Positions 1,250 through 24,211 of a stretch of 64,000 bases of DNA are shown here, one piece after another. The stretch covers positions 13,841 through 77,840 of the forward strand of contig JBHHYU010000006.1 in assembly GCA_046757725.1 (NCBI GenBank), written 5' to 3'. The notes below the pieces were generated by a model. It saw only the letters and a program-made list of their open reading frames with translations, ran no database searches and was not told the origin of the DNA. Both the position numbers and the translations under genes were made by a program. Source of the stretch: Candidatus Binatia bacterium (GTDB lineage Bacteria > Desulfobacterota > Binatia > UBA9968). Position 1 is the stretch's first letter. Every line of letters starts with the position of its first letter.

Positions 1250-2539
1250 CTAGGAGCTCTTCCGAACGCGATAGAAGCTTCTAAAACGGTTCTCCTTCAT
1301 CTGTATGAGCTGGCTATAAGACCCGAATTGCTCCTCAGGGTGTTCTACCTCATCTAAGAGATCCACAGGGTTTTCCTCGGTCTCAAAGATTCTGACCTTT
1401 TTGTAAGTGGTCGATCGTTCACCCGGGACTCGCCCCATTTCACGAATCAGATCTCGGAACTGAGCCGGCTTCATCAGTTGACCATACCCGGCGCCGGCTG
1501 CCGTGGAAATACTTTCGTTAATGAGCGTTCCTCCAAAATCATTGGCACCCGCCATGAGGCTCGTCTGGGAGAGTTTAGGGCCTTCTTTGACCCAAGAGAC
1601 TTGCAGATTGGGAATCCAGTTGTTCAACATAATACGCGACACCGCGTACATTTTCATCACTTCAGCTCCGGTTGCCCCGGCACGTAGACCGGCAATCTTC
1701 CTTCGATGATACATCGGGGCCTCTTCAAAGACAAAGCTCAACGGTACAAACTCAGTAATTCCTCCAGTCCGCATCTGGATATCTCGTAATATGCCCAAAT
1801 GGACAGCCTTGTGATGCGAATTCTCAACGTGACCGTACATGATGGTGGAAGTCGTTGGGATCCCCAAGTGATGAGCGGTCTGAATGAGGTCCACCCAATC
1901 GCAAGTACTGATACGTCCTTTAGAGATCTTTTCACGTACATCATCCACTAATATCTCGGCAGAGGTCCCCGGTAGGCTTCCCACGCCGGCGTCTTTGAGG
2001 GCGGCTAGGTAATCTCTCACGGATACACCGGTGAGTGTAGCTCCATAAAGCACCTCTTCTGGAGAAAAACCGTGGATGTGCAGATCGGGCAGAGCTCGCT
2101 TCAGGGCTCGACACAGGGTAACATAGTGCCAGCCGTCCATCCCTGGAGCCAAGCCTGCCTGAACACACACCTCGGTGGCTCCAAGCTCCCATGCCTCCTT
2201 GGCACGTCGAAGGATCTCTTCCAGCGGCAGAAAATATCCCTCCGTCGCCAGGTGACCTCGGCTAAACGCGCAAAAGCCACAGCCTTTTACACAGACATTG
2301 GTAAAATTGATGTTTCGATTGACCACGTACGTTACGATATTGCCGACGGTTTTTTCGCGAAGGTAATTTGCTACGGCCATCATTGTGAGAAGGTCGCTCC
2401 CGGAGGCGTCGAATAACTCGGTACCTTCTTTTACGGTAATGTCCTCACCGGCAAGAGCGCGATCGAGAATCCGCCCGATCGTAGGTGTCACGGTACCTAA
2501 AAGGGAATCTAGCGATGATTTGAGATGCGATAACTCCAT
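1250..2539 (-). CDS. radical SAM enzyme, CofH/MqnC/MqnE family (aminofutalosine synthase or FO-synthase-like)
   Basis: CxxxCxxC radical-SAM motif in NFTNVCVKGCGFCAFSR. Overall similarity pattern to the CofG/CofH/MqnC/MqnE family. Length 429 aa. Confidence 0.7.
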   Translation of the reverse strand: MELSHLKSSLDSLLGTVTPTIGRILDRALAGEDITVKEGTELFDASGSDLLTMMAVANYLREKTVGNIVTYVVNRNINFTNVCVKGCGFCAFSRGHLATEGYFLPLEEILRRAKEAWELGATEVCVQAGLAPGMDGWHYVTLCRALKRALPDLHIHGFSPEEVLYGATLTGVSVRDYLAALKDAGVGSLPGTSAEILVDDVREKISKGRISTCDWVDLIQTAHHLGIPTTSTIMYGHVENSHHKAVHLGILRDIQMRTGGITEFVPLSFVFEEAPMYHRRKIAGLRAGATGAEVMKMYAVSRIMLNNWIPNLQVSWVKEGPKLSQTSLMAGANDFGGTLINESISTAAGAGYGQLMKPAQFRDLIREMGRVPGERSTTYKKVRIFETEENPVDLLDEVEHPEEQFGSYSQLIQMKENRFRSFYRVRKSS

Positions 2540-3207: not shown

Positions 3208-3243
3208 TTGACAATGTGGACTTAAGGAGTCTATATTTATTCG
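3208..3243 (+). promoter_or_regulatory. candidate sigma70-type promoter for the Rrf2-suf operon
   Basis: TTGACA, then an 18-bp spacer, then TATATT, located just upstream of the Rrf2 ORF. Confidence 0.3.
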
Positions 3244-3250: not shown

Positions 3251-3733
3251 GTGATGAGGTCATCTAAAAGCGAGATTGAGAGAAGCTCTCTGATGAATGT
3301 GGGACGGCGCGTGGATTACGCGGTTCGTGCGCTTTCCTATCTAGCCGCCCGGTCCCGGAGTGAGATCGTTAGCAAAGCTGAGATTGAACGGAAACAGGAC
3401 ATACCACCTTACTATCTTTCAAAGATCATGAAAGATCTCGTTGCGGGTGGTCTTGTTAGATCACATGTGGGCTGTAAGGGCGGTTTTAGCCTCGCCCGAT
3501 CAGGAAGGGCGATCAGCCTTAAAGAAGTTTATGAAGCCGTGGAACGACCACTGGTGCTTATGGAATGCATTGAAAAGGGTGAAGATTACTGCTCCTATTG
3601 CGCAGCGTGCACACAAATCACTATCTGGGAAAAGGCGCAGAGACTTCTAGCGACTTACCTTGATACGGTCTCCGTGGGTGATATCGCGGATCAAGAGGGG
3701 CTGAAAACACGGATGATCGCCCTTCAGAGTTGA
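3251..3733 (+). CDS. Rrf2-family transcriptional regulator (IscR-like, cysteine cluster present)
   Basis: N-terminal wHTH pattern typical of Rrf2 proteins (VDYAVRALSYLA...KIMKDL) and a C-x-C-x2-C-type cysteine cluster (ECIEKGEDYCSYCAAC). Alternative start at 3293 (MNVGRR). Confidence 0.85.
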   Translation: MMRSSKSEIERSSLMNVGRRVDYAVRALSYLAARSRSEIVSKAEIERKQDIPPYYLSKIMKDLVAGGLVRSHVGCKGGFSLARSGRAISLKEVYEAVERPLVLMECIEKGEDYCSYCAACTQITIWEKAQRLLATYLDTVSVGDIADQEGLKTRMIALQS

Positions 3734-3780
3734 TCGGTGTTTATTCAGGATGGTGTGTAACGGGAGAGGAATATAAAAGG

Positions 3781-4551
3781 ATGCTAAGCATCGAAAATCT
3801 TTATGCGAGTGCTGGGGGCAGAGAGATCCTGCGGGGAATCAATCTCACAGTCAATCCTGGCGAGATCCACGCGGTGATGGGGCCGAACGGCTCGGGCAAG
3901 ACGACTTTGGCTCATGTGCTCTCCGGGCAGGAAACCTACAACGTAACGGCGGGTAAAGTGACCTATCAAGGAAAAAACCTTCTAGGGATGTTACCCGAAG
4001 AACGAGCGCGGGAAGGTATTTTTCTAGCCTTCCAGTATCCGGTCGAAATCCCAGGAGTGAGCACGACCTATTTTCTTAAGGCAGCGCTGAATGCGGTTCG
4101 GAAGCACCGTGGTCTTGAGGAGCTGGATGCAATGGACTTTCTGGCTCTTGTAAAGGAGAAAATGCAGTTGGTTGATATGGATCAGAGCCTCCTAAACCGC
4201 CCTGTCAATGAAGGATTCTCCGGTGGAGAGAAAAAACGTAATGAGATTCTCCAAATGGCGACGCTAGACCCGAAACTTGCGATCCTGGATGAGACCGACT
4301 CCGGTCTGGATATCGATGCACTCAAGATTGTAGCTAACGGCGTCAATGCGCTCCGGAACGAGGAGCGTGCCATGATCGTTATTACTCACTATCAGCGGCT
4401 TTTAAATTATATCGTGCCTGACTACGTTCACGTGCTTTTCGAGGGTTGTCTTGTGAAGTCCGGCTCAAAGGATCTGGCACTGGAACTCGAGGCGAAAGGC
4501 TATGATTGGGTGAAACAGGAAGTCGAGGCATCTCGCCAAGCGGGACTCTAG
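3781..4551 (+). CDS. sufC: Fe-S cluster assembly ATPase SufC
   Basis: Walker A GPNGSGKTT, ABC signature SGGEKKR, and typical SufC length. Start moved from the track ORF (3730) to the ATG at 3781 (MLSIENL). Confidence 0.9.
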   Translation: MLSIENLYASAGGREILRGINLTVNPGEIHAVMGPNGSGKTTLAHVLSGQETYNVTAGKVTYQGKNLLGMLPEERAREGIFLAFQYPVEIPGVSTTYFLKAALNAVRKHRGLEELDAMDFLALVKEKMQLVDMDQSLLNRPVNEGFSGGEKKRNEILQMATLDPKLAILDETDSGLDIDALKIVANGVNALRNEERAMIVITHYQRLLNYIVPDYVHVLFEGCLVKSGSKDLALELEAKGYDWVKQEVEASRQAGL

Positions 4552-4570
4552 AGAAAAGAAATCTAAGGCG

Positions 4571-5914
4571 GTGGTTCATATTTCAGAAGTAATTAATCGA
4601 TATTTACGCGATTTCGAGAGGTTTGAGAAGGATCGGGGCCTAAAGAGACCTGGGTGGGTTCGATCGCTCCGCTCGGCGGCCATTGCCCATTTTGCTGAGT
4701 TAGGATTTCCTACTACTCGAAATGAGGAGTGGAAATATACTAGCTTGGCACGACTGTTGGGGATCCCTTTTAGCCCCGCCCCCGTTAAGACAAACGGCCT
4801 CACAGCGGATTCTCTTGTGCGTGTTGGTCTCGATAGATCAGATGGTAGCCGGCTGGTTTTTATAAATGGGTTCCATTCGCCTGAACTTTCCTGCGTTGAG
4901 TCCCTACCGGGCGGAGTAAGGGTTGGGAGTCTTTCAGCGGTTCTTAGCAGTACTCCGTCTTTGACGGAAACTCACCTGGCTCAATATGCCGGCTATGAGG
5001 GTCAGGCCATGGTCGCCCTGAACACGGCATTCATGGAGGACGGGGCGTTCGTCTACGTTCCAGCTGGTCAGATCGTTGAGGAGCCTATTTATTTACTGTT
5101 CATAGCGGCGGGTGCAAGGCAGCCGACAGTTTCGTATCCACGGAACCTGGTCGTTGCAGGGCCCGCAAGCCGGGCGACGATCATTGAGTGTTTCACGGCT
5201 TTAGAGGCTGACGTATATTTTACAAATGCCGTTACGGAAATCGTAGTCGGTGAAGATGCGGGCGTCGATTATTACAAGCTTGAGCGGGAGAGTAAAGGGG
5301 CCTTTCACATTGGGAGACTAGAGGCCCAACTAGGTCGCGGCAGTCGCTTCAACTCTCAGTCTATCACTTTGGGAGGTAGCCTGGTCAGAAACGATGTGAA
5401 CGCCGTGTTAGACGGTGAAGGTAGTGAGTGTACGCTGAATGGTTTGTACCTGGCAAAGGATGCGCAACATATGGACAATCACACAAGGATAGATCATAGG
5501 AAGCCTCAGTGTATCAGTCGCGAGCTCTACAAGGGCGTTCTCGATGGGAAGGGCCGCGGGGTGTTTAACGGAAAGGTGTATGTAAACAAGGCCGCGCAGC
5601 ATACTGATGCGAAGCAGACCAACAAGAATCTTCTACTTTCAGAAGGGGCGTCGATTGACACCAAGCCACAACTGGAGATCTATGCCGACGACGTGAAATG
5701 CACGCACGGGTCGACGATAGGTCGGCTTGACGAAGATGCTCTCTTTTATTTGCGAGCCCGAGGTCTATCCGTCGCGGCTGCGCGTAACCTTCTCACTTAT
5801 GCCTTTGCCGGTGAACTTATCGGCAAGATTTCGGTTGAGCCGATGAGGGCCCTGGTTGACAACCTGGTGCGGACCGGGCTTCGACAAGAGATGCAGGGAG
5901 GCCAAAGGCTATGA
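4571..5914 (+). CDS. sufD: Fe-S cluster assembly protein SufD
   Basis: C-terminal beta-helix region DTKPQLEIYADDVKCTHGSTIGRLDEDALFYLRARG...YAFAGEL matches the SufD signature rather than SufB. Confidence 0.85.
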   Translation: MVHISEVINRYLRDFERFEKDRGLKRPGWVRSLRSAAIAHFAELGFPTTRNEEWKYTSLARLLGIPFSPAPVKTNGLTADSLVRVGLDRSDGSRLVFINGFHSPELSCVESLPGGVRVGSLSAVLSSTPSLTETHLAQYAGYEGQAMVALNTAFMEDGAFVYVPAGQIVEEPIYLLFIAAGARQPTVSYPRNLVVAGPASRATIIECFTALEADVYFTNAVTEIVVGEDAGVDYYKLERESKGAFHIGRLEAQLGRGSRFNSQSITLGGSLVRNDVNAVLDGEGSECTLNGLYLAKDAQHMDNHTRIDHRKPQCISRELYKGVLDGKGRGVFNGKVYVNKAAQHTDAKQTNKNLLLSEGASIDTKPQLEIYADDVKCTHGSTIGRLDEDALFYLRARGLSVAAARNLLTYAFAGELIGKISVEPMRALVDNLVRTGLRQEMQGGQRL

Positions 5915-7182
5915 AGGCTGCCCGTGAAATCGGCCCTGCCGGTGTGAAGGGAGATTTCCGGCCTCCCTTGGATTTCGAAAAGATCAGGCGGGACTTCCCC
6001 ATTCTTTCGCAGCGCGTTCATGGGAAGCCGCTCGTTTATCTCGACAATGCGGCCACTAGTCAGAAGCCGCGGATTGTAATGGATACGGTGAATAACTATT
6101 ATTCAGCGCAGAACGCTAATATTCACCGAGGTATTCATTTTCTAAGCGAGCAAGCTACGGCGGACTATGAGAGTTCCCGGGAAAAGGTAAGATCCTTTCT
6201 CAACGCGTCTGACCGTCGAGAGATTGTCTTCGTCAGAGGTACCACGGAAGGTATCAACCTCGTAGCACAGAGTTATGGGAGGAAGTTTCTTAAAGAGGGC
6301 GACGAGATCATTGTCTCCGCTATGGAGCATCATTCCAATATTGTGCCCTGGCAGATCCTTTGCGAGCAGGTTGGCGCCAAACTGCGCGTTATTCCCATCA
6401 ACCATAAGGGCGAGTTGTTGATGGATGAATATAAAAAGCTCCTGAACCGAAAAACAAAGTTTGTCACCGTGGCTCATATATCCAATGCGCTCGGCAGCAT
6501 CAATCCCGTAAAGAAGATTATCGAAATGGCGCACCACGAGAGCATTCCGGTCATGATCGATGGAGCGCAGGCCGTGCCTCACGTAAAAGTGGATGTCCAG
6601 GACCTCGGTTGTGATTTTTACGCGTTTTCCGGACACAAGCTATTTGGCCCAACGGGTATCGGTATACTTTATGGCAAAGCGGATCGGCTGGAAGCCATGC
6701 CACCGTATCAGGGTGGTGGCGACATGATCAGTTTGGTGACCTTTGAGAAGACGCACTATAATGTGCTACCCTATAAATTCGAGGCGGGGACCCCGAATAT
6801 CGCTGGCGGGATAGGGCTCGGTGCCGCCATAGACTATGTGAACGGGATAGGGCTGGAGGTTGCGGCAGTTTATGAACGGGAGCTGCTTAGGTATGCGACG
6901 GAGGCTCTGTCGACGGTCGACGGTTTGAAAATAATTGGTACCGCAAGAGAGAAAGCAAGCGTTATTTCGTTCGTCCTTGAGGGAGTGCATGCCCATGACA
7001 TCGGGACCATCCTGGACCAAGAGGGAGTGGCTATCCGCGCCGGTCACCACTGTGCGATGCCGGTAATGCAGCGATTTGGAATCCCGGCTACGGCTCGCGT
7101 CTCCCTCGCGTTTTATAACACGAGACGAGAGGTGGATACTTTGGTATGGGCAATTCGAAAAGTCATTGAGGTGTTTCGTTAA
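5911..7182 (+). CDS. sufS: cysteine desulfurase SufS (class II)
   Basis: PLP-lysine context SGHKLFGPTGIGILYG, motifs HHSNIVPWQ and RAGHHCA. Confidence 0.9.
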   Translation: MKAAREIGPAGVKGDFRPPLDFEKIRRDFPILSQRVHGKPLVYLDNAATSQKPRIVMDTVNNYYSAQNANIHRGIHFLSEQATADYESSREKVRSFLNASDRREIVFVRGTTEGINLVAQSYGRKFLKEGDEIIVSAMEHHSNIVPWQILCEQVGAKLRVIPINHKGELLMDEYKKLLNRKTKFVTVAHISNALGSINPVKKIIEMAHHESIPVMIDGAQAVPHVKVDVQDLGCDFYAFSGHKLFGPTGIGILYGKADRLEAMPPYQGGGDMISLVTFEKTHYNVLPYKFEAGTPNIAGGIGLGAAIDYVNGIGLEVAAVYERELLRYATEALSTVDGLKIIGTAREKASVISFVLEGVHAHDIGTILDQEGVAIRAGHHCAMPVMQRFGIPATARVSLAFYNTRREVDTLVWAIRKVIEVFR

Positions 7183-7652
7183 TGTCCGAGATCAGTGAAT
7201 TGTATCAGGAGGTCATACTCGACCACAATAAAAGTCCGCGAAACTTTCACCGAATAGAAGGGGCGAACCTTACCGCGGAAGGGTACAACCCTCTGTGTGG
7301 CGACCAGATCACCGTCTACATTAAACTGAAGGATGATGTGATTGGGGATATTAGCTTTCAAGGCTCAGGTTGCGCAATTTCGAAGGCATCTGCCTCCATG
7401 ATGACCGCCAGCCTAAAAGGTAAAACCAAGGCTGAAGCACGGAGCCTGTTCGAAAGTGTTCATAAAATGCTTACTGACGGGACGGTCCCCAATTCCGACC
7501 CCACTGAACTTGGGAAACTTGCCGTTCTATCGGGGGTGTGTCATTTCCCTGCACGGGTTAAATGTGCGAGCCTGGCATGGCATACATTTCAGGCCGCACT
7601 CCAAGGGCGAGGAGGGGTGATGTCCACTGAGGAAACCGTCGGGAAAGGATGA
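7182..7652 (+). CDS. sufU: SUF-system sulfur-acceptor scaffold SufU (NifU/IscU-like, zinc-type)
   Basis: Conserved Cys in NPLCGD, GSGCAISKAS and CASLAWH. Confidence 0.85.
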   Translation: MSEISELYQEVILDHNKSPRNFHRIEGANLTAEGYNPLCGDQITVYIKLKDDVIGDISFQGSGCAISKASASMMTASLKGKTKAEARSLFESVHKMLTDGTVPNSDPTELGKLAVLSGVCHFPARVKCASLAWHTFQAALQGRGGVMSTEETVGKG

Positions 7653-7688
7653 ACCCGCAACCTGACTCATAATGAGAAGATCGCAAAA

Positions 7689-8246
7689 ATGAAGGGTAAC
7701 GGACCGATAACTCTAAAGCGGGATTGCGATGCGGTCCTAATACCTAGTGGTGATAAGCAAAAACTTCCGTCCGGCAGTCAGGTATGGATTACGCAATCCT
7801 TGGGAGGCAGCTTCACTGTGATGACGGACCGTGGAGATATGGCACGTATCGCCGCCACGGATGGGGATGCCCTCGGACTGGAAATCGAGGTCATCTCGCC
7901 GGCTGAAGTCTCCGCCGCAGAGGAGGGGACCACCGACCTCGAGAATACGGTTTGGGAAGAACTCAAGACATGTTTTGACCCGGAGATTGCGATCAATATT
8001 GTCGATCTCGGGCTTGTTTACCGTTGTCGCGTGACACCCATGAAAGGTGGGGGGAAAAAGGCCGAAATCAAATTTACGTTAACAGCGCCTGGTTGTGGCA
8101 TGGGGGAGACACTTAAACTAGATATTCAAAATAAGATTCTTAGGATACCTGGAGTTGAGGAAGTTGAGGTCCAGCTGGTTTGGGATCCCCCGTGGGATCA
8201 GAGCATGATCTCGAAATCCGGCAAACAGCAACTCGGGATAGTGTGA
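7689..8246 (+). CDS. sufT: SufT-like Fe-S assembly protein (N-terminal beta domain plus DUF59/MIP18)
   Basis: DUF59 core CFDPEIAINIVDLGLVY...APGCGMG. Position in the suf operon. Confidence 0.7.
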   Translation: MKGNGPITLKRDCDAVLIPSGDKQKLPSGSQVWITQSLGGSFTVMTDRGDMARIAATDGDALGLEIEVISPAEVSAAEEGTTDLENTVWEELKTCFDPEIAINIVDLGLVYRCRVTPMKGGGKKAEIKFTLTAPGCGMGETLKLDIQNKILRIPGVEEVEVQLVWDPPWDQSMISKSGKQQLGIV

Positions 8247-8283
8247 CAACGCAAGGGGCGCATAAGGAACGGGTGCAAAGGGC

Positions 8284-8595
8284 ATGAATAAACTTGTTTT
8301 GGAGGCTGAGGTCATTGAGGCGCTACGAACCTGTTTTGATCCTGAGATTCCGGTGAATGTCTACGATTTAGGATTAATTTACGGCATCGGAGTCGACGAT
8401 GCAGGTGTTGTTGGCATTCAAATGACTCTCACCTCGCCCGCTTGCCCGGTCGCGCAATCGTTACCGGTAGAAATACAGGCCAAAGTCAAGGGTGTGCCAG
8501 GAGTAACCGAAGCCACGGTCGATATCGTTTGGGATCCCCCATGGGAGCCGAGCAAGATGTCTGAGGCGGCAAAGCTTCAGCTCGGCATGTTATAA
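8284..8595 (+). CDS. standalone DUF59/MIP18-family protein
   Basis: CFDPEIPVNVYDLGLIY...SPACPVA. Confidence 0.7.
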   Translation: MNKLVLEAEVIEALRTCFDPEIPVNVYDLGLIYGIGVDDAGVVGIQMTLTSPACPVAQSLPVEIQAKVKGVPGVTEATVDIVWDPPWEPSKMSEAAKLQLGML

Positions 8596-8624: not shown

Positions 8625-10199
8625 ATGAGTAACCAGGAAATCGGAGCCGCATGGGCTTATCATAACGGAACAAAACATTCTTATCAGAGTATCCACACCA
8701 GGCCCCACTACCTTGATTGGGATAACCAGCCGATTCCGTTTAAGGTCTATTCGCAATTACATCCTATTCCGCTGCCACAACACCTCTCATCGTCAGGGGT
8801 AGCAGCGCTTTCCGCCATCTCTTCCGATGGCTCCAAGCGAGACAGGCTCCATGTTTCCAGTAACGACACCCTGGCAGAGATTCTCTTTCTCTCCGCGGGA
8901 GTCACCCGGCGTAGACATTACCCCGGAGGGGAAATTCTGTATCGCGCCGCGGCGTGCACCGGGGCGCTTTATCACATTGATCTATACATAGTCTGTGGCG
9001 ACCTGCCGGGTTTAAAGGCGGGGGTGTATCACTTCGGACCGCATGACTTTGCCCTGAGGAAGCTCAGAGCGGGAGATTATCGATCGGTTCTGGTTCGTGC
9101 GAGTGGTAAAGAGCCAGCCATTGCCGGAGCATCCGCTGTTATTATCTGTGCCTCGACCTACTGGCGAAACGCCTGGAAATACCAGTCCAGGGCTTATCGG
9201 CACTGTTACTGGGACAATGGTACGATACTGGCTAATCTGTTGGCGGCGGCGGATGCCCGTAAAGTGGCAACACAGGTGGTTCTTGGTTTCGTAGATTCTG
9301 CGGTGAACCAGCTGTTGGGTCTTGACACCGAGCGTGAAGGATCTCTGACTCTTGTAGCGACAGGGGCTGTCCCAGCTTTAGTGCCTGAGCACTCTGCGGA
9401 TGTTCCGCCCGTAATCCTCGCGACGGTGGCACTATCGGAAAGGGAGATCCATTATCCGGGTATACGGGCCATGCATGTGGCTTCGTCTTTGGAGAGTGAA
9501 GAGGAGGTACGAGCGTGGGGTAAGCAGACTATAGGCTCGCCGACGCCCAAGCGTAACTGGGGTGAGAGATTGTTCCCGCTTCGGCCATTGGGCGACCATG
9601 AGCTTCCTCGGGATACGATTGAGGAGGTCATCTTGCGCCGCGGTTCCACCCGGCAGTTTTCACACGAGTCAATCACCTTTACCCAGCTCTCCACGATGCT
9701 TGACCGAGCAACTCGTGGGGTACCAGCCGATTATCGCTTAGCTGTAAGTTGCCCCATTAATGACCTCTATCTCGTCGTCAGTGCGGTGGAAGGGCTACCT
9801 CCCGGGGCCTATGTGTTTCACCGGGATAAACGGGTATTGGAGTTACTTAAGGAAGGTGATTTCCGGCAACAGGCGGGATACCTTGGCCTGGGACAGGAGA
9901 TCCCGTCTGATGCCAGCGTGAATATTTTTTTTCTAACCGACCTCAACACTATCCTGAAACAATTCGGTTGCCGCGGTTATCGTGTAGCTCAGCTTGATGC
10001 CGCCATCACGGGTGGGAGGCTCTATCTTTCCGCCTATGCTCTACGCCTCGGTGCTTCGGGACTCACTTTCTTCGATGATGATGTTACGGAATTTTTTTCG
10101 CCCCATGCGGCGGGGAAAAGCGTCATGTTTCTAATTGCGTTGGGTAAATCGGTGAAGAAGAAAAAACCTAGATCCGCACTGAAAGAGGATGTAATGTAA
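8625..10199 (+). CDS. SagB-type dehydrogenase (two tandem nitroreductase-fold domains)
   Basis: N-terminal AYHNGTKHSY signature of SagB-type dehydrogenases. 524 aa, consistent with a double domain. Confidence 0.7.
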   Translation: MSNQEIGAAWAYHNGTKHSYQSIHTRPHYLDWDNQPIPFKVYSQLHPIPLPQHLSSSGVAALSAISSDGSKRDRLHVSSNDTLAEILFLSAGVTRRRHYPGGEILYRAAACTGALYHIDLYIVCGDLPGLKAGVYHFGPHDFALRKLRAGDYRSVLVRASGKEPAIAGASAVIICASTYWRNAWKYQSRAYRHCYWDNGTILANLLAAADARKVATQVVLGFVDSAVNQLLGLDTEREGSLTLVATGAVPALVPEHSADVPPVILATVALSEREIHYPGIRAMHVASSLESEEEVRAWGKQTIGSPTPKRNWGERLFPLRPLGDHELPRDTIEEVILRRGSTRQFSHESITFTQLSTMLDRATRGVPADYRLAVSCPINDLYLVVSAVEGLPPGAYVFHRDKRVLELLKEGDFRQQAGYLGLGQEIPSDASVNIFFLTDLNTILKQFGCRGYRVAQLDAAITGGRLYLSAYALRLGASGLTFFDDDVTEFFSPHAAGKSVMFLIALGKSVKKKKPRSALKEDVM

Positions 10200-10283: not shown

Positions 10284-10709
10284 GTGATGGCACGCACACT
10301 GTATGAGCAGCTTGGTGGTGAAGCCGCGCTGCGCCAGATCATAGAGACTTTCATTGATCGGGTTTTTGAAGACAGAATGATTGGTTTCTTCTTCCGGAAT
10401 GCGGACAACAGACGGATTAAGGAGATGGAGTTTCAGCTGACTGCCCGCTTCCTCGGCGCTGACGTGGAGTATCAGGGGAGACCGCTCGATGAAGTTCACT
10501 CCAAACATCCGATCATGGGTGGACAATTTGCCCGTCGACTTCAAATCCTGCGTGAAACACTTGAAACGTATCAGGTCCCCAAGCACATCCGAGATGCTTG
10601 GTTCGAACATACTGAGAGTTTAAGGTCTCTGATTACGAGGGATGCAGGCTCAGATTGCGATCCTATGCTTGCACGAGAAAAAGTCCAGGGAACCTCTCAA
10701 GACTCTTAA
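10284..10709 (+). CDS. truncated haemoglobin (2/2 Hb, group I-like)
   Basis: LYEQLGGEAALRQIIETFIDRVFED N-terminal pattern typical of trHb. About 140 aa. Confidence 0.75.
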   Translation: MMARTLYEQLGGEAALRQIIETFIDRVFEDRMIGFFFRNADNRRIKEMEFQLTARFLGADVEYQGRPLDEVHSKHPIMGGQFARRLQILRETLETYQVPKHIRDAWFEHTESLRSLITRDAGSDCDPMLAREKVQGTSQDS

Positions 10710-10798: not shown

Positions 10799-11662
10799 GT
10801 GAAGATACGTGACCTTTATGACCAACCCGGGCTGACTCTCTCGATTGAGTTCTTCCCGCCTAAAACGGAAAAAGGGGATGCGAACCTATTAAAAGAGATT
10901 GCTGTTTTAAAAACTCTCAATCCCTCTTTTTGTTCCGTGACGTATGGAGCTGGTGGTAGCACGCGGGGGAAGACAGTGGATCTGGTAGCTCAGATCCACC
11001 GTGAGTGTGAGCTTGAGGTAATGTGCCACTTGACCGTCGTAGGACAATCGAAAGACGAGGTCCGTTCGGTCTTGGAGAAGCTAAAAGGGGAGGGCATCGA
11101 AAACATGATAGCCCTCGGGGGGGACCCGCCTCAGGGAATTGTTGACTGGACTCCGCACCCTGACGGGTTTCATCACTCGGTTGAATTGGTCAGGGAAGCG
11201 GTCACTTACCAGTGTTTTTCCATCGCTGTGGCAGGTTTTCCCGAAGTCCATCCCCGTGCCAAGAGCCGGGATGCGGACCTCAGATATCTAAAGGAAAAGG
11301 TGGATGCTGGGGCGGACGTTGTGATCACGCAGCTGTTTTTTGAAAATGAGGACTATTATCGTTACGTCGAGGACGTGAGAAGACTTGGTGTGCGCGTGCC
11401 GATCGTCCCCGGGCTTCTGCCCATCCTTTCGGTGCCTCAGGTGCGCCGCTTTACTAAACTGTGCGGTTCGAAGATCCCCCCCGGATTGGAGCACCTATTG
11501 ACGGGGGTTGAGGATGACGAAGCCGGGGCGGTGCAACTGGGTATTGACTATGCCTCGCGACAATGTGAGGGCCTGCTGACTTTCGGCGTGCCGGGGATTC
11601 ACTTCTATTCCCTTAACAAATCCTATTCCATTAAAAGCATTCTGGGCAATCTTGGTTTTTAA
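10799..11662 (+). CDS. metF: 5,10-methylenetetrahydrofolate reductase
   Basis: LSIEFFPPKT...SVTYGAGGSTR MetF signature. GTG start. Confidence 0.9.
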   Translation: MKIRDLYDQPGLTLSIEFFPPKTEKGDANLLKEIAVLKTLNPSFCSVTYGAGGSTRGKTVDLVAQIHRECELEVMCHLTVVGQSKDEVRSVLEKLKGEGIENMIALGGDPPQGIVDWTPHPDGFHHSVELVREAVTYQCFSIAVAGFPEVHPRAKSRDADLRYLKEKVDAGADVVITQLFFENEDYYRYVEDVRRLGVRVPIVPGLLPILSVPQVRRFTKLCGSKIPPGLEHLLTGVEDDEAGAVQLGIDYASRQCEGLLTFGVPGIHFYSLNKSYSIKSILGNLGF

Positions 11663-11849
11663 GATTGCCCAGATTTCTCGCTTCATTGAATTCCTGGCTT
11701 GCGGATAGTATGTTGGGCGATACGCGTAAGGGAGGACACGATTAGAAAAAGGCCGCCGTCTTCCATCGTACAATCTCCCCGTCGATTGGTAACGTTATTC
11801 TTTCTCCTTTGTTCCGGCTTAACTCAAATGTTAAGGACAGTCTGTTTTT

Positions 11850-13097: not shown

Positions 13098-13767
13098 TCT
13101 TCTTCAAGTCGAAGGTCTACACAAGTATTTTGTCGAGGGAGGCAAAGAGATCCATGTCCTCAAGGACCTCGATCTGGAGTTAGGTGAAGGGGAACGGCTG
13201 GCGATCGTGGGAGAGTCGGGAGTGGGTAAGAGTACACTGCTTCATATCTTGGGTACGTTGGATCGCCCCAGCGATGGAAGAGTGATCTTTCGAGGGAAGG
13301 ATCTTTCAGGGTTTAGTGACGCTGCGTTATCCAATTTTCGTAATCATCAAATCGGTTTTGTCTTTCAATTTCACTATCTATTACCGGATTTCAGTGCCTT
13401 GGAGAATGTTATGCTTCCGGCCTTGATCCGGGGTTGGGAGTGGGCGCAGGCAGTGAAAGGCGCCGGAGAACTCTTGGAAATGGTCGGATTGAAGGATCGG
13501 ATCAGGCATCGACCCGGACAACTCTCCGGTGGCGAACAGCAGCGGGTGGCCCTGGCGAGATCTGTAGTTCTGAAACCGCCATTGATCCTTGCAGATGAGC
13601 CGACAGGGGACCTGGATCCACGAATCGCAGGCGAGGTGCAAGAGATCCTGTTTCGCCTCAACGAGGAGAAAGGAGTCGCCATCGTTGTAGCAACTCACAA
13701 TCGAGGATTTGCAGCAAAAATCGGGCAACAGAAGGAACTGCGTGAAGGGAGACTTTTCTTGCTATGA
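13090..13767 (+). CDS. lolD: lipoprotein-releasing system ATPase LolD
   Basis: Walker A GESGVGKST, signature LSGGEQQR, Walker B ILADEPTG. Confidence 0.85.
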   Translation: MSNLLQVEGLHKYFVEGGKEIHVLKDLDLELGEGERLAIVGESGVGKSTLLHILGTLDRPSDGRVIFRGKDLSGFSDAALSNFRNHQIGFVFQFHYLLPDFSALENVMLPALIRGWEWAQAVKGAGELLEMVGLKDRIRHRPGQLSGGEQQRVALARSVVLKPPLILADEPTGDLDPRIAGEVQEILFRLNEEKGVAIVVATHNRGFAAKIGQQKELREGRLFLL

Positions 13768-13852
13768 TTTCGGGTATTTATTGCCTTTACAACAGTTCGT
13801 GGATTTGCTAAAAGTTGTTAGGAAGTGTTTTCAGTTAATCGAGGCGCTATCA

Positions 13853-16225
13853 ATGGGAAAGCCAGTGCTGACCTATAGGAGGAAGATCGTATTTTTTTCT
13901 CTCCTTTCTTATCTGATCCTATTTCTTTGCCCGCCGTCTCACGCGATGGGGACGGTGAGATTAAAAAAAGTAAGAGTCCGAGGTAATGTAAGGGTTGAAG
14001 TTGATGGAATCCAACTTCATCTTAAGGTTCGGGCGGGGGACCTAATTGACGCGGCCGCTATAGACCGTGATGTAAAGGCAATTTACCGTATGGGTTTTTT
14101 CGATGATGTTAAGGCAGATCTCTCTCCTGACGGGATTCTGACCTATGTTGTCAGAGAAAAACCATATGTTCGGGAGATTCGTATCCGGGGTAATGCTCAG
14201 GTTACCAGAGATAAAATCAATACCGCCCTCGGCATCCAGCCGCGCGTGATCATGGACCGGACCAAGGTCGTAGAGGGAGTTGAAAGAGTCAAACGGCTAT
14301 ACAGGGAGCAGGGCTACGTAAACGCTCAAGTGGCGTTTGCCATTCAACTTTTAGATAACAACCAGGCGATGGTACAGGTGGAGATTGATGAGGGCCGTCG
14401 CCTCTTGATCCAGAAGATCAGTTTCGAAGGGAATCATGCCTTCTCTGATGGTGAGTTGAAAGGGCTTATGGCTACCAAGGAAAAATGGCTCCTTTCCTTC
14501 GTAACGAACAGGGGAGTGTTGGATAGGGATGTTTTAACCAACGATTTAGCGATCCTGGCCTCTCATTACTATGATGACGGGTACATCAATCATAAAATCG
14601 ATGAGCCGGTGATCCTAAGGCATCGCGCGGGGATTGAGGTGGTGATTCGGATCCAGGAAGGAGATCAGTTTCGAGTGGGGAAGGTGGAGATCGGCGGAGA
14701 CCTGATTGAAGATGGGCACAAGCTCCTTGAAAAGGTAAAATTGACTACGGGGCAGATCTTCCGGGGGAGCCGTCTACGCGGGGATATCTCGACTCTTTCC
14801 AAGTTTTATTCCAGCAAAGGATTCGCCTTTGTTAAAATTGATCCGCTCACTAAAATGAATCCCGGAAAGAAAGATGTTGATATTGCCCTTGTCGTTAAGC
14901 GTGGTCCCCCCGTTCATTTCAATCGGATCATTGTTGCCGGGAATACGAAGACACGAGATCATGTGATCCGGCGGGAGCTACGCGCCGCGGAGGGAGAGCT
15001 TTTTTCCGGTAAAAGAATAACGGAAAGCAGAAATGCGTTGCGACGGACGGGTTATTTTTCAGGTGTGGAGCTGAAGACTAAAAAGTCCTCGAGGCCCGGA
15101 GCCGTTGATCTCCTCGTTGACGTCAAGGAGGGTAAAACGGGCACGTTCAGCATCGGTGGGGGTTATAGCGGTGCAGACAATTTTGTGGCTAGCGCTTCGG
15201 TAACGGAAGGAAATCTCTTTGGTCGCGGTCAGAAGGTTAATGCTAGTTTCAGTTTAGGAACACAACAGCAGGATTTTGTTCTAGGTTTTACCGAACCTTA
15301 TTTTCGTGATACACCCTTGAGTCTCGGGGTGAGCGCCTTCAATTCCAGGACGGACTTTACCACGTTTTCCTCTCGACGGACGGGGTTTGGTACGACAACC
15401 AGCTATCCTATAAAATATTTAGGTCTTCCATTTTTGAAACCCATCCGTCGGGATCCGGCCTCGGACAGCTCTGAAAAGCAGTATTCGCCGTTCATCGAGC
15501 ATATGCGCGGCGGGGTAGGTTATCAGCTTGCACGTGAAAAGATTAATAATTTTGATGACGATACCCCGGAATCGATCAGAGCCGAAAAAGGGTCTTCCAC
15601 GACCAGCAGTATTACACCGATGCTGTCGTACGATTCCCGGGATCAGGTCTTTAATCCAACGGAAGGGACAAAATCCAGCCTTGAGATCAAATATGCCGGG
15701 TTGGGAGGAGAAAACCGCTTCCTTAAAACGGATGTGAGGGTCCGCCGGTACCTTCCGCTCCTTAATGACCCGGATTTGGGAGGCGCTTATACCCTTGCGT
15801 TGGGTGGAAATCTCGGCTATGGCGTCGGATTTGAGAGGCGCGTGAACGGGAAAAAAGATCTGCCGATTTTTGAACGTTATTTTCCAGGTGGCGCTGGCTC
15901 GGTGCGTGGATTTGAGGCGAGAAGTCTGGGTCCCCAGGACGATGGAGACTCCGTGGGCGGAGACAAACAGGCCATCCTCAACGCTGAGCTATTTTTTCCG
16001 ATTCTGGAGGAACATGGGCTTCGAGGCGTAGCCTTTTTTGATACCGGGCAAGCATTTGCGGAGTCCCAGAGTTTTAATTTAAGCGACTTCAGAAGGTCGG
16101 TAGGCGTAGGGGGCCGTTGGCTTTCTCCTTTCGGTCCGATCAGTATTGATTTGGGGTTTCCTCTCAATAAACAATCGGGCGACGACACCTCGGTTGTCAG
16201 TTTTTCCGCGGGCGGTCAACGTTAA
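13853..16225 (+). CDS. bamA: outer-membrane protein assembly factor BamA
   Basis: Signal peptide, POTRA repeats and a C-terminal beta-barrel. Start moved from the track ORF (13709) to the ATG at 13853 (MGKPVLTYRRKIVFFSLL). Followed by skp-lpxD-fabZ-lpxA. Confidence 0.9.
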   Translation: MGKPVLTYRRKIVFFSLLSYLILFLCPPSHAMGTVRLKKVRVRGNVRVEVDGIQLHLKVRAGDLIDAAAIDRDVKAIYRMGFFDDVKADLSPDGILTYVVREKPYVREIRIRGNAQVTRDKINTALGIQPRVIMDRTKVVEGVERVKRLYREQGYVNAQVAFAIQLLDNNQAMVQVEIDEGRRLLIQKISFEGNHAFSDGELKGLMATKEKWLLSFVTNRGVLDRDVLTNDLAILASHYYDDGYINHKIDEPVILRHRAGIEVVIRIQEGDQFRVGKVEIGGDLIEDGHKLLEKVKLTTGQIFRGSRLRGDISTLSKFYSSKGFAFVKIDPLTKMNPGKKDVDIALVVKRGPPVHFNRIIVAGNTKTRDHVIRRELRAAEGELFSGKRITESRNALRRTGYFSGVELKTKKSSRPGAVDLLVDVKEGKTGTFSIGGGYSGADNFVASASVTEGNLFGRGQKVNASFSLGTQQQDFVLGFTEPYFRDTPLSLGVSAFNSRTDFTTFSSRRTGFGTTTSYPIKYLGLPFLKPIRRDPASDSSEKQYSPFIEHMRGGVGYQLAREKINNFDDDTPESIRAEKGSSTTSSITPMLSYDSRDQVFNPTEGTKSSLEIKYAGLGGENRFLKTDVRVRRYLPLLNDPDLGGAYTLALGGNLGYGVGFERRVNGKKDLPIFERYFPGGAGSVRGFEARSLGPQDDGDSVGGDKQAILNAELFFPILEEHGLRGVAFFDTGQAFAESQSFNLSDFRRSVGVGGRWLSPFGPISIDLGFPLNKQSGDDTSVVSFSAGGQR

Positions 16226-16265
16226 GTTGAACCTTTCTCAATTCTTCTTTTATCTGGAGGTATAT

Positions 16266-16802
16266 GTGAAAAAGTGTCTAGTGTTGTTTTTCTTAGTTCT
16301 ATTCGTAACCCCGTTATGGGCGCAGGAGTCGGTTAAACCCATCAAAATCGGTGTTGTTGATATCCAAAAAGCAATTCGGGAATCCGAAGCAGGAAAAAAA
16401 GCAAAACAGACATTTCGCGCACGGGTAAAAAGAACGGAGGCACGGCTTCTTAAGGAAAAACAGGAAGTAGAGCGATTGCAGAATGAGTTTCAGAAGAAGA
16501 GTCCTCTTCTAAAAGATGAAGAGAGGCAAACTCTCGGGAGGAACATTCAAAAGCGACAGCGCGGTTACGAGCTTAACATGCGTGACTCCCAACAAGAGTT
16601 GCGGCAGCGGGAAGCGGACATGACACGAAAGATCCTGAAGGCGCTGCATGCGGTTATTATGGAGTTAGGGAAGCGCAATAAATTTACTCTTATTGTGGAA
16701 CGTTCCCAGATTCCTTATGCGGATGGTAGCATCGACATTACCGACCAGATCATAAAGATGTACAATGATCAGACCGCTTCAAAAGGTTCCAAGGGAAAGT
16801 GA
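16266..16802 (+). CDS. skp: periplasmic chaperone Skp/OmpH
   Basis: Signal peptide, then a Lys/Glu/Gln-rich coiled coil. GTG start at 16266 ([13 protein letters not shown]). Confidence 0.8.
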
Positions 16803-17875
16803 ACAGCCAACGGAAGACCCTTTCTGAACTGGCTCAGCTTGTTGGTGGTCGAGTCGTCGGGGATGAAAATGTTGAAATACAGCGAGTCGTATCCATTGAA
16901 CATGCGGAGCATGGAGATATTACCTTTGTCGCACATCCACGTTATCGGTCCTATTTGGCCGGCTGTGGAGCGAGTGCTATCATTGTTGGACCGGAGGTCC
17001 CGCTCGCCTCGTTAGAAGAAGCAGGAAAAGGTTTTCTTCAAGTCTCCCAGCCTTATCTCGCCTTTGCTAGGATTCTCCAGTTATTTACGCCAGGCCCGGT
17101 CTACGACGGTCAGGTCAGTGCCCAGGCTAGTATTGATCCTACCGCTGTTCTCGCGGAACGGGTTACGGTATTTCCGAACGTTTATGTAGGAAAGGGAGCC
17201 AGCGTCGGTCGTGGCAGCGTCCTTTTTCCTGGTGTGTATCTGGGGGAAGAAGTGGAGGTAGGAGAAGAATGCGTGCTACACGCACAAGTCACGGTAAGGG
17301 AGCGTTGTCGTATCGGGAATCGCGTTATTCTACATCCCGGCGTAGTTATTGGCAGTGACGGTTTCGGTTACGCCGGTGAGGGGGAAGAAAGGGTCAAGAT
17401 ACCGCAAGTGGGAGCCGTTGACGTTGAGGATGATGTAGAGATCGGGGCCAACACGACGATCGATCGCGGTACACTTGGGAAGACCGTTGTCGGTCGCGGG
17501 ACAAAAATAGATAACCTAGTACAAATTGCTCACAACGTAGTTGTTGGTGAACATACGATCATTGCAGCTCAGGCAGGGATTGCCGGAAGCACGCGGATTG
17601 GTAATGACGTGGTTCTAGCCGGGCAGGTAGGTGTCGTCAATCATATCGAGATTGGCGACAAGGTGACGATTGGGCCGCAATCCGGTGTCCCCCATTCGGT
17701 TCCTTCTGGTAGCTTGCTCTCGGGGGGATTGGCAGCGGCCCCGCATCTGGAGTGGTTAAAGGTCGTTACGATGCTCCCTCGTCTGCCAAAATTGTGGGCG
17801 ACCCTCCGGCATCTGGAGCGGAAGGTTTCACGTTTGGAGGACGTGAAAAAAAAAGGAGTCAAGACCCATGCTTGA
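16799..17875 (+). CDS. lpxD: UDP-3-O-acylglucosamine N-acyltransferase
   Basis: Left-handed beta-helix hexapeptide repeats. Conserved lpxD-fabZ-lpxA order. Confidence 0.9.
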
Positions 17876-18305: not shown

Positions 18306-18333
18306 GTCCGTGCATTCTGAGGATGGGTGGAGA

Positions 18334-20133: not shown

Positions 20134-20220
20134 GGAACAATGATTCAATTTAGCGCGTCGAGTCTGCTCAGTTCCTTCAAGTATCGAACGGGGAAGTTAG
20201 TGCTTTATGGAGTGTAATGA

Positions 20221-24205: not shown

Positions 24206-24211
24206 GTCGCC

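What the first reader, a model, noticed from the sequence alone, without database searches (positions are those of the whole stretch)
8625..10199. Standalone double-domain SagB-type dehydrogenase at the end of the suf Fe-S operon, without YcaO/cyclodehydratase partners
The 524-aa protein opens with the AYHNGTKHSY motif of SagB-type (TOMM/thiazole-oxazole dehydrogenase-like) nitroreductase-fold enzymes and is long enough for two such domains. It follows sufCDSU-sufT-DUF59 on the same strand with a 30-bp gap and precedes a truncated haemoglobin. No YcaO, no E1-like partner and no precursor-peptide-like ORF is nearby. A RiPP role is therefore unlikely. Co-transcription with Fe-S assembly genes suggests a redox or flavin function tied to cluster biogenesis or oxidative stress.
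Basis: partly seen in the sequence, partly recalled or inferred. Interest (0 to 1): 0.5.

Follow-up and report, generated by a model that had tools for sequence, protein, structure and literature searches.

The report
Orphan two-domain flavoenzyme behind suf operon
The gene encodes a fused two-domain, probably FMN-binding enzyme from a very large family of unknown function; it sits at the end of an iron-sulfur assembly operon only in a small branch of Binatia bacteria, so the link to that pathway is local and weak.

Summary
ORF 8625-10199 (+) encodes a 524-aa protein with two nitroreductase-fold, SagB-type domains (TIGR03605 156 bits, cutoff 78.4). It lies 29 bp after Rrf2-sufC-sufD-sufS-sufU-sufT(long)-DUF59 and before a truncated globin and MetF. 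No YcaO, E1-like or second SagB gene occurs in the 64-kb window.

It belongs to a large, already catalogued orphan family: 942 clusters at 50% identity with E<=1e-30. The one solved structure is 3EO7 (Anabaena Ava_2154, unpublished, FMN-bound), the only full-length match by sequence (E=1.4e-60) and by fold (TM 0.68/0.73). RiPP and NRPS oxidases match one domain only.

The suf linkage is not general. Of 160 related loci, 7 have suf genes within 10 kb upstream, 4 of them directly abutting, while 90 with at least 3 kb of upstream sequence have none. Eight contexts from other phyla show no suf, no YcaO and no shared neighbour. The linked loci look like fragments of one Binatia redox neighbourhood (suf, long SufT, Rieske ferredoxin, glutaredoxin, sigma-70, globin).

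Verdict: a standalone pseudo-dimeric flavoenzyme, not a RiPP enzyme, probably co-transcribed with suf here. A dedicated Fe-S role is possible but unsupported outside this lineage. A co-varying Cys111/His117 pair replaces the canonical FMN-contact motif.

The parts
3208..3237 (+). Best sigma-70-like promoter match (TTGACA-18-TATATT, 11/12), 14 bp upstream of the Rrf2 gene; candidate operon promoter
   Evidence: Overall site counts are at chance level; only the position and the score are suggestive.
3251..3733 (+). Rrf2-family regulator (generic; below the IscR/SufR/NsrR equivalog cutoffs)
3730..4551 (+). SufC ATPase
   Evidence: TIGR01978 358 bits, cutoff 213
4571..5914 (+). SufD (not SufB); no sufB anywhere in the window
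   Evidence: TIGR01981 295 bits against cutoff 222, SufB model 130 against cutoff 346; tblastn with a genuine SufB finds only this paralogue.
5911..7182 (+). SufS cysteine desulfurase
   Evidence: TIGR01979 606 bits
7182..7652 (+). SufU sulfur-transfer protein
   Evidence: TIGR01994 164 bits
7689..8246 (+). Long-form SufT (unique N-terminal region plus DUF59); the neighbour that recurs in the suf-linked relatives
   Evidence: TIGR03406 215 bits, cutoff 202.6
8284..8595 (+). Short DUF59 protein (SUF_assoc)
   Evidence: TIGR02945 144.4 bits, cutoff 143.4
8625..10199 (+). The finding: 524-aa two-domain SagB-type / nitroreductase-fold protein of the 3EO7-like family
8649..8750 (+). N-terminal family signature (aa 9-42: WAYHxGTKHS...LDWxNQPIPFKxY)
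   Evidence: H13, T16, K17, W32, P36, P38, K40 and Y42 are invariant between the Binatia and cyanobacterial branches
8865..9362 (+). Domain 1 (aa 81-246): TOMM-oxidase-like SagB domain. The FMN-phosphate motif is degenerate (SAGVTR); it carries the modified contact motif RAAACTGALYH and the Lys185-Tyr186 pair.
   Evidence: (McbC, CyaGox and ThcOx match only this half)
8955..8975 (+). Cys111...His117 (CTGALYH), replacing Ser...Pro of the canonical PSAGGLYP; invariant in 79/79 close relatives and co-varying across the family
9630..10145 (+). Domain 2 (aa 336-507): generic nitroreductase/BmdC-like domain that keeps the canonical FMN-phosphate motif RRGSTR (aa 338-343, nt 9636-9653)
   Evidence: R339 114/115, S341 114/115, R343 111/115
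10284..10709 (+). Truncated (bacterial-like) globin
   Evidence: PF01152 E=6e-11. Also downstream of the gene in L046, L083, L084 and L111.
10799..11662 (+). Methylenetetrahydrofolate reductase MetF
   Evidence: TIGR00676 309 bits
11641..11673 (.). 13-bp-stem hairpin overlapping the MetF stop codon; the only strong terminator-like structure between the Rrf2 gene and the next gene block

Best explanation
The gene encodes a standalone flavoenzyme made of two fused nitroreductase-fold domains that pack as an intramolecular pseudo-dimer. It is a member of the large orphan family represented by PDB 3EO7 (Anabaena Ava_2154) and Arabidopsis At1g02020. Inferred mechanism: one composite FMN site is built from the RRGSTR phosphate-binding motif of domain 2 and the R107-AAACTGALYH loop of domain 1. 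The symmetry-related site is degenerate, because domain 1 has SAGVTR and domain 2 has no PSAG-type loop. Lys185-Tyr186 of domain 1, the pair that TOMM dehydrogenases need for catalysis, is retained, so a dehydrogenation or hydride-transfer reaction on an unknown, non-RiPP substrate is expected. In this clade the canonical Ser/Pro of the FMN-contact loop is replaced by a co-varying Cys111/His117 pair, which may add thiol chemistry next to the flavin. In this genome the gene is probably the eighth gene of an Rrf2-controlled transcript (Rrf2-sufCDSU-sufT-DUF59-gene-globin-metF), and would then be expressed together with the Fe-S assembly genes. That placement is a lineage-restricted remnant of a Binatia redox neighbourhood, not a conserved functional partnership. 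Shown: domain architecture, family membership, fold, absence of RiPP partners, rarity of the suf linkage. Inferred: FMN stoichiometry and site, catalysis, co-transcription.
For: Domain assignment; internal duplication. Full-length homology to 3EO7 by sequence (E=1.4e-60) and by fold (Foldseek E=2.8e-30, TM 0.68/0.73, model pTM 0.75), while RiPP and NRPS oxidases and generic nitroreductases match one domain only. FMN is present in 3EO7 according to PMC7538488 and PMC5108345. Motif conservation in 115 diverse representatives: R339/S341/R343, R107, G113, Y186, R192, D197 at 111-115 of 115. Family size: 942 50%-identity clusters at E<=1e-30 and 568 species genomes. No YcaO or E1 in the window or among recurrent neighbours. 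Linkage statistics: 7 suf-linked loci against 90 informative unlinked ones; 8 distant contexts without suf. Operon signals: tight spacing, promoter-like site at 3208-3237, hairpin at 11641-11673.
Against: There are no expression data, so co-transcription is inferred from spacing only, and the promoter/terminator scan as a whole is at chance level. The first structure model was poor (pLDDT 48.7). The second still has low confidence at residues 1-41, 111-115, 181-187 and the 266-312 linker, which are exactly the active-site loops. Within the Binatia sublineage the gene stays near long SufT, Rieske and glutaredoxin genes through several rearrangements. That is more than a single frozen accident would predict and leaves room for a real functional tie.
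Confidence: 0.75

Rival explanations
1. Dedicated SUF accessory reductase: the flavoprotein supplies electrons to Fe-S cluster assembly or repair (persulfide S0 to S2-, or Fe3+ to Fe2+), possibly through the Rieske ferredoxin and long SufT that flank it in relatives.
For: Probably co-transcribed with sufCDSU-sufT here. It directly abuts a DUF59/SufT gene in 4 loci (window, L046, L047, L071). In L002 it follows SufB - long SufT - Rieske ferredoxin, and in L131 a Rieske ferredoxin lies 105 bp upstream. Glutaredoxin, rubrerythrin and a globin recur nearby. The suf-linked copies fall in three places in the protein tree.
Against: Only 7 of 97 informative loci are suf-linked. Even close relatives lack suf nearby: L045 is 74% identical to suf-linked L071, and L114 is 89% identical to L131. 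No linkage is seen in 8 other phyla-level contexts. The shared glutaredoxin and sigma-70 orthologues (66-76% and 55-66% identical) suggest one ancestral neighbourhood, not independent recruitments. The family is present in organisms whose SUF operons lack it, for example Nostocales. No literature link was found.
Confidence: 0.12
2. Generic NAD(P)H nitro/quinone reductase for detoxification, whose placement beside suf has no meaning.
For: Pfam PF00881 match. Domain 2 resembles generic FMN nitroreductases (3HOI, 8CQS). A metagenomic single-domain SagB-family enzyme reduced metronidazole (PMC10055417). Genomic contexts are heterogeneous.
Against: The SagB model scores well above its cutoff, and the architecture is a fused hetero-pseudo-dimer with a family-specific N-terminal motif not found in NfsA/NfsB-type enzymes. 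Conservation is very strong (78-99% across Nostocales; many invariant residues), which argues for a specific physiological substrate.
Confidence: 0.08
3. True RiPP/azoline dehydrogenase whose YcaO cyclodehydratase and precursor peptide are encoded elsewhere in the genome.
For: The TIGR03605 match, the retained Lys-Tyr pair of domain 1, and the similarity of domain 1 to McbC and ThcOx.
Against: No YcaO, E1 or precursor gene in 64 kb, in the recurrent neighbours of 77 genome loci, or in 8 distant contexts. The protein has no RRE/peptide-clamp domain. Its housekeeping-like distribution, including plants (PMC7538488), is untypical of RiPP clusters. TIGR04511 scores 88 bits against a cutoff of 240.
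Confidence: 0.03
4. Non-catalytic, flavin-free structural or regulatory protein, like the Acg-type tandem nitroreductase-fold proteins.
For: One of the two pseudo-symmetric sites is clearly degenerate, and the canonical PSAGGLYP contact loop is altered.
Against: The RRGSTR motif and other flavin-site residues are almost invariant across 115 diverse members. The homologue 3EO7 holds FMN (PMC7538488 and PMC5108345).
Confidence: 0.02

Closest known systems
PDB 3EO7, Ava_2154 'putative nitroreductase' of Anabaena variabilis (JCSG, unpublished), with its Nostocales orthologues and plant At1g02020
   Same: Same length class (511 vs 524 aa). The alignment is collinear over residues 9-510 (E=1.4e-60) and it is the only full-length fold match (TM 0.68/0.73). 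It shares the N-terminal YHxxTK...LDWxxQPxPFKxY signature, the two-domain order, RRSTR only in domain 2, and a standalone gene without RiPP partners.
   Different: Only 27-29% identical. 3EO7 has the canonical RAAPSAGGLYP and RRI where the window protein has RAAACTGALYH and RHC, and Arg-Tyr instead of Lys-Tyr. Its gene has no suf neighbourhood. Its function is equally unknown.
TOMM/LAP and cyanobactin azoline dehydrogenases (SagB, McbC, ThcOx/CyaGox)
   Same: Domain 1 matches the FMN domain of these enzymes (E=1e-7 to 1e-9; Foldseek). The TIGR03605 model is passed and a Lys-Tyr pair is conserved.
   Different: These are single nitroreductase-fold domains that form homodimers, often with RRE/peptide-clamp domains, and are encoded next to YcaO and precursor genes. 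Here there is a fused second domain, no RRE and no YcaO or precursor, and the N-terminal motif is absent from them.
NRPS tailoring oxidase BmdC and generic FMN nitroreductases (3HOI, 8CQS, NfsA/NfsB)
   Same: Domain 2 matches them (E=1e-10 to 3e-5). It has the same fold and the same RRxSxR flavin-phosphate motif.
   Different: They are homodimers with two equivalent FMN sites, one domain per chain. There is no NRPS nearby.
SUF accessory genes found at the 3' end of suf operons (SufT/DUF59 proteins)
   Same: Position at the distal end of a suf operon, directly after long SufT and SUF_assoc.
   Different: SufT families are defined by near-constant association with suf (my knowledge of the TIGR03406/TIGR02945 descriptions). 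This gene is suf-linked in about 7% of informative loci.

Membership tests
SagB-type dehydrogenase domain family (TIGR03605) | HMM score above the curated cutoff | tested here: met
   156.3 bits against a cutoff of 78.4, two stretches, best at residues 81-246
SagB-type dehydrogenase domain family (TIGR03605) | Nitroreductase fold that binds FMN | tested here: inconclusive
   The fold is met. FMN binding is inferred from the RRGSTR motif and from FMN in 3EO7 (PMC7538488); it was not measured.
TOMM/LAP/cyanobactin azoline dehydrogenases (functional RiPP enzymes) | Conserved Lys-Tyr catalytic pair near the flavin | tested here: met
   K185-Y186 is conserved in at least 90% of 79 relatives; Y186 is kept in 113/115 and K185 in 93/115 diverse members, with R in 19
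TOMM/LAP/cyanobactin azoline dehydrogenases (functional RiPP enzymes) | Encoded with a YcaO cyclodehydratase (with or without an E1-like partner) and a precursor peptide | tested here: not met
   None in the 64-kb window, none among recurrent neighbours, none in 8 distant contexts
TOMM/LAP/cyanobactin azoline dehydrogenases (functional RiPP enzymes) | Single-domain homodimer, with or without an RRE/peptide-clamp domain | tested here: not met
   Two fused domains. No RRE hit in Pfam or NCBIfam. TIGR04511 scores 88 bits against a cutoff of 240.
3EO7-like two-domain 'SagB/ThcOx family dehydrogenase' orphan family | Collinear full-length similarity, about 500-530 aa, domain order SagB-like then nitroreductase-like | tested here: met
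3EO7-like two-domain 'SagB/ThcOx family dehydrogenase' orphan family | N-terminal YHxxTK...W..P.P.K.Y signature | tested here: met
   Invariant between the Binatia and cyanobacterial branches. Among PDB chains it is shared only with 3EO7.
NfsA/NfsB (NfnB)-type nitroreductases | Single-domain homodimer, about 200-250 aa, best hit to NfsA/NfsB models | tested here: not met
   No NfsA/NfsB NCBIfam hit at E<=0.01. Foldseek TM to the query is only 0.21-0.25 for NfsA/NfrA-type chains.
SUF Fe-S assembly system components | Consistent genomic association with sufBCD/sufSU across lineages | tested here: not met
   7 linked against 90 informative unlinked loci; 0 of 8 distant contexts
SUF Fe-S assembly system components | Biochemical participation in cluster assembly | not testable with these tools
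   Needs genetics or in vitro reconstitution

The most novel reading that the evidence does not exclude
In a Binatia sublineage, the Cys111/His117 variant of this orphan flavoenzyme family is the missing reductase of the SUF pathway. It would pass electrons, directly or through the neighbouring Rieske ferredoxin and with long SufT as adaptor, to reduce persulfide sulfur or ferric iron during Fe-S cluster assembly or repair under oxidative stress. More broadly, the whole 3EO7/At1g02020 family, which extends to cyanobacteria and chloroplasts that also rely on SUF, would then have a role in Fe-S or thiol redox homeostasis.
Probability: 0.1. Interest if true: 0.75.

Novelty: new member of a known kind. 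Interest (0 to 1): 0.3.

Why it matters
As it stands, this is an ordinary member of a catalogued family ('SagB/ThcOx family dehydrogenase'). The annotation name is misleading, because nothing connects these two-domain proteins to RiPP biosynthesis. Two things give it modest value. First, the family is very large (942 clusters at 50% identity), is strongly conserved from Binatia to cyanobacteria and has plant relatives, and has had a solved structure since 2008, yet no function has been assigned. The Binatia neighbourhood (suf, long SufT, Rieske ferredoxin, glutaredoxin, rubrerythrin, globin) is one of the few contextual hints and points to Fe-S or thiol redox stress. Second, the electron source for SUF-type cluster assembly is still unresolved (my own knowledge, not checked here). 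A flavoprotein encoded inside a suf operon is a cheap candidate to test, even though the comparative evidence gathered here argues against a general role.

Tried and rejected
- **Shallow structure model.** The first AlphaFold run used 16 close homologues and gave pLDDT 48.7, so it was discarded. A mixed Binatia/cyanobacteria alignment gave pTM 0.75. Coordinates are not returned, so Cys/His-to-FMN distances could not be measured.
- **Fe-S or metal site in the protein itself.** C111, H117, H193 and C194 are invariant or nearly so in close relatives. Across the family, however, C194 is kept in only 15/115 and C124 in 57/115. By nitroreductase architecture C111 and H193/C194 should lie in different pseudo-sites. 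There is no 3-4 Cys signature, so this idea was rejected as unsupported.
- **A conserved non-suf partner.** Flanking ORFs of 77 genome loci were clustered. The commonest neighbour occurs in 18 loci and on the opposite strand. The top clusters are MBL-fold, GATase, Fpg, TsaD, RsmA, MFS, SPFH and trehalose-P synthase, so there is no partner.
- **A general Rieske partner.** A Rieske ferredoxin or oxygenase lies upstream in only 6 loci (L002, L084, L131, L038, L049, L055), all within the same Binatia group.
- **Literature.** No paper held in the library mentions SagB together with 'suf operon' or SufT. The SufT + nitroreductase hits were irrelevant. The At1g02020 and 3EO7 papers give no function.
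- **F420 link.** CofH lies upstream on the opposite strand. Nothing ties it to this gene, so it was not pursued.
- **L024.** Its three tandem copies turned out to be a segmental repeat of about 4 kb with unrelated genes.
Full report
**1. The observation.** ORF 8625-10199 on the + strand encodes 524 aa beginning MSNQEIGAAWAYHNGTKHSY. NCBIfam TIGR03605 (SagB family peptide dehydrogenase domain) scores 156.3 bits against a cutoff of 78.4, in two stretches. Pfam PF00881 (Nitroreductase) is also hit in two stretches, the best at residues 336-488. Residues 71-257 and 321-512 align with each other at 24% identity, E=3e-6, so the 'double domain' description is correct.

The genes upstream on the same strand are:
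- an Rrf2 regulator, 3251-3733
- SufC, 3730-4551
- SufD, 4571-5914 (TIGR01981 295 bits against cutoff 222; the SufB model reaches only 130 against 346)
- SufS, 5911-7182
- SufU, 7182-7652
- long-form SufT, 7689-8246 (TIGR03406 215 bits, cutoff 202.6)
- a short DUF59 protein, 8284-8595 (TIGR02945)

Downstream are a bacterial-type truncated globin (10284-10709) and MetF (10799-11662). The gap before the gene is 29 bp. The exact protein occurs in a Candidatus Binatia MAG.

**2. No RiPP partners.** The rest of the 64-kb window encodes CofH and Pdf upstream. Downstream lie an outer-membrane/lipid A block (BamA, Skp, LpxD, FabZ, LpxA, LpxI, LpxB, MsbA, KdtA, LpxK), LPS-core glycosyltransferases and kinases, RelA, an aldehyde:ferredoxin oxidoreductase, asparagine synthase and ferredoxin-type proteins. 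No YcaO, ThiF/E1 or second SagB-like gene turned up among the ORFs and called genes examined.

**3. What the protein is.**
- *Closest structure.* A profile of close homologues finds one full-length relative among solved structures: 3EO7, a 511-aa 'putative nitroreductase' (Ava_2154) from Anabaena variabilis, aligned over residues 9-510 at E=1.4e-60.
- *Single-domain matches.* McbC, CyaGox and ThcOx match only domain 1 (about residues 105-252). BmdC and generic FMN nitroreductases match only domain 2 (about 334-484), all at E=1e-10 or weaker.
- *Fold.* A first AlphaFold model from a shallow alignment was poor (pLDDT 48.7) and was not used. A second, from an alignment spanning the Binatia and cyanobacterial branches, reached pTM 0.75 with both domain cores at pLDDT 80-95. 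Foldseek against the PDB again gave 3EO7 as the only full-length hit (E=2.8e-30, TM 0.68/0.73), and all other hits cover one domain.
- *Literature on 3EO7.* It is an unpublished JCSG entry used only as a molecular-replacement model (PMC5108345, PMC8795117). It contains FMN, and its closest plant relative is Arabidopsis At1g02020 (PMC7538488). No function has been reported.
It lies outside the SagB domain model, so it marks this two-domain family rather than TOMM dehydrogenases.
- *Family size.* The family has 942 clusters (50% identity) at E<=1e-30 and 8,706 at E<=1e-3. Relatives occur in 568 species genomes. Conservation across Nostocales is 78-99%. Databases already name these proteins 'SagB/ThcOx family dehydrogenase'.

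**4. Anatomy and inferred mechanism.**
- *Complementary motifs.* The self-alignment places domain 1's SAGVTR opposite domain 2's RRGSTR. Only domain 2 keeps the canonical flavin-phosphate motif; R339, S341 and R343 are present in 111-114 of 115 diverse members. Conversely, only domain 1 has the R107-x-x-(P/A)(S/C)(A/T)G-x-L-Y-(P/H) loop (R107 and G113 in 113/115) and the Lys185-Tyr186 pair (Y186 in 113/115).
- *One FMN site.* In homodimeric nitroreductases each FMN site is built from the RxSxR motif of one subunit and the PS-loop of the other. That is established architecture and my own knowledge. The complementary degeneration seen here therefore predicts a single composite FMN site per chain, at the domain interface. 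This step is inferred, not shown.
- *Cys/His pair.* The canonical Ser and Pro of PSAGGLYP (as in 3EO7) are replaced by Cys111 and His117, which are invariant in 79/79 close relatives. Among 113 diverse representatives with residues at both positions the two co-occur: 53 have Cys and His, 43 have neither, 11 have Cys only and 6 have His only (Fisher p=3e-14, not corrected for phylogeny). A Cys-His pair beside the flavin could add thiol chemistry, but no coordinates were available to test the geometry.
- *No Fe-S site.* A metal or Fe-S site in the protein itself is not supported, because C194 and C124 are not conserved across the family.

**5. The suf linkage.**
- *Local operon signals.* Genes from Rrf2 to the SagB-like gene overlap or are at most 37 bp apart. 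The best promoter-like site (11/12) lies at 3208-3237, just upstream of the Rrf2 gene. The only strong hairpin is at 11641-11673, at the MetF stop. The scan totals equal chance expectation, so this is suggestive only.
- *Counts.* I fetched 79 genome loci and 80 metagenome loci and located homologues of the window's neighbours by tblastn.

| State of the 160 loci (window included) | Loci |
|---|---|
| suf genes within 10 kb upstream, same strand (window, L002, L046, L047, L071, L084, L131) | 7 |
| of these, directly abutting a DUF59/SufT gene (window, L046, L047, L071) | 4 |
| at least 3 kb of upstream sequence and no suf | 90 |
| 0.7-3 kb of upstream sequence and no suf | 36 |
| uninformative | 27 |

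- *Patchiness.* The linked copies fall in three places in a neighbour-joining tree. Close relatives of linked copies are sometimes unlinked: L045 is 74% identical to L071, and L114 is 89% identical to L131.
- *Unlinked neighbourhoods.* Neighbours in unlinked loci are unrelated housekeeping genes: MBL-fold, GATase, Fpg, TsaD, RsmA, MFS, SPFH and trehalose-P synthase. The commonest occurs in 18 of 77 loci and on the opposite strand.

**6. The Binatia neighbourhood.** The linked loci are not identical.
- L071 has sufB-C-D-S-U-sufT followed by the gene.
- L002 (73% identical) has sufS-U-T-DUF59, an RpoD-like sigma factor, Rrf2, a NuoB-like protein, a SufA/IscA carrier, a ferredoxin, a genuine SufB (920 bits), a second long SufT, a Rieske ferredoxin, then the gene.
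- L084 has rubrerythrin, Rrf2, NuoB-like, ferredoxin, long SufT, Rieske ferredoxin, sigma-70, glutaredoxin and a radical-SAM protein before the gene, and the globin and MetF 7 kb after it.
- L131 has a Rieske ferredoxin 105 bp upstream.
- L038, L049 and L055 have glutaredoxin, then a Rieske oxygenase, then the gene, with gaps of 22-33 bp; the RpoD-like sigma-70 gene lies further upstream in L038 and L049. L092 has sigma-70, glutaredoxin, then the gene.
- The glutaredoxins (66-76% identical) and the sigma factors (55-66%) look orthologous across these loci.

The simplest reading is one ancestral region (suf ... sigma-70 - Grx - Rieske - gene ... globin - MetF) that has been shuffled and mostly dispersed. 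About 13 loci retain some part of it.

**7. Independent lineages.** A profile of 50 distant representatives retrieved members from other phyla. Contexts were read for Armatimonadota, Chloroflexota, Terriglobales, Methylomirabilis, Acidiferrales and two long ENA contigs, and for Nostocales. None has suf, YcaO or any shared neighbour, and the gene is usually separated from its neighbours by more than 100 bp. The decisive signature of functional coupling is independent recurrence of the linkage, and it is absent in this sample.

**8. Verdict.** The inference of a function tied to Fe-S biogenesis rests on an arrangement present in about 7% of informative relatives within one lineage. It remains a hypothesis, which I put at roughly 10-12%, rather than the best explanation. 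The best explanation is a standalone, pseudo-dimeric, single-FMN oxidoreductase of the orphan 3EO7/At1g02020 family, probably co-expressed with suf in this organism. It is a new member of a known but functionally uncharacterised kind.

**9. Limits.**
- There are no expression data.
- No model or PDB coordinates were available.
Some genome and metagenome loci are duplicates (for example L019 and L095).
- The co-variation and linkage statistics are not corrected for phylogeny.
- The MAG is incomplete, so partners elsewhere in the genome, including sufB, cannot be excluded.

Noticed in passing
window 3730-8595: The suf operon has SufC, SufD, SufS, SufU and two DUF59 proteins but no SufB. tblastn with a genuine SufB finds only the SufD paralogue anywhere in the 64 kb. 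In relatives SufB precedes SufC (L071, L131) or sits in a second cluster with SufA, NuoB-like, long SufT and Rieske genes (L002).
   Followed up: partly
window 8955-8975 (Cys111...His117): The canonical FMN-contact loop PSAGGLYP of SagB-type domains is replaced by ACTGALYH. Cys and His co-vary across 113 diverse family representatives (53 both, 43 neither, 11 Cys only, 6 His only), which defines an undescribed subfamily signature.
   Followed up: partly
window 7689-8246 and 8284-8595: A long SufT and a short SUF_assoc protein lie in tandem; their DUF59 domains are 46% identical. L002 and L084 each carry two long SufT copies.
   Followed up: partly
window 1250-2539 (-): CofH, the radical-SAM subunit of FO (F420 chromophore) synthase (TIGR03551 463 bits, cutoff 374), lies next to peptide deformylase, divergent from the suf operon. 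This arrangement is syntenic in L046.
   Followed up: no
window 13709-27772: A contiguous outer-membrane/lipid A block: BamA, Skp/OmpH, LpxD, FabZ, LpxA, LpxI, a GFO/IDH/MocA oxidoreductase, LpxB, MsbA-like ABC, KdtA, LpxK, then an MsrA fused to a Hydrolase_like domain.
   Followed up: no
window 49584-51491 and 60190-63434: An aldehyde:ferredoxin oxidoreductase (AFOR_N plus AFOR_C), a 653-aa poly-ferredoxin/FlpD protein and a NarJ-like chaperone are present: anaerobic-type redox enzymes in the same window as a globin.
   Followed up: no
L024 8600-20400: Three SagB-like copies (one apparently frameshifted) lie within a tandem segmental repeat of about 4 kb, together with a substrate-binding-protein gene and two minus-strand genes. 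This could be a real amplification or an assembly artefact.
   Followed up: partly
L038 6801-11548; also L049, L055, L092, L084: A recurrent block of RpoD-like sigma-70, glutaredoxin, optionally a Rieske oxygenase, then the SagB-like gene. The Rieske-to-gene gaps are 22-33 bp in L038, L049 and L055.
   Followed up: partly
L168 7599-11270: In a Methylomirabilis MAG the SagB-like gene is followed, 54 bp downstream on the same strand, by a 1,223-aa protein that combines Thioredox_DsbH/thioredoxin-like domains with an aldo-keto reductase domain.
   Followed up: no
window 11641-11673: A perfect 13-bp-stem hairpin overlaps the MetF stop codon. It scores as a terminator on the minus strand and is the only strong hairpin between 3.2 and 11.7 kb.
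   Followed up: no
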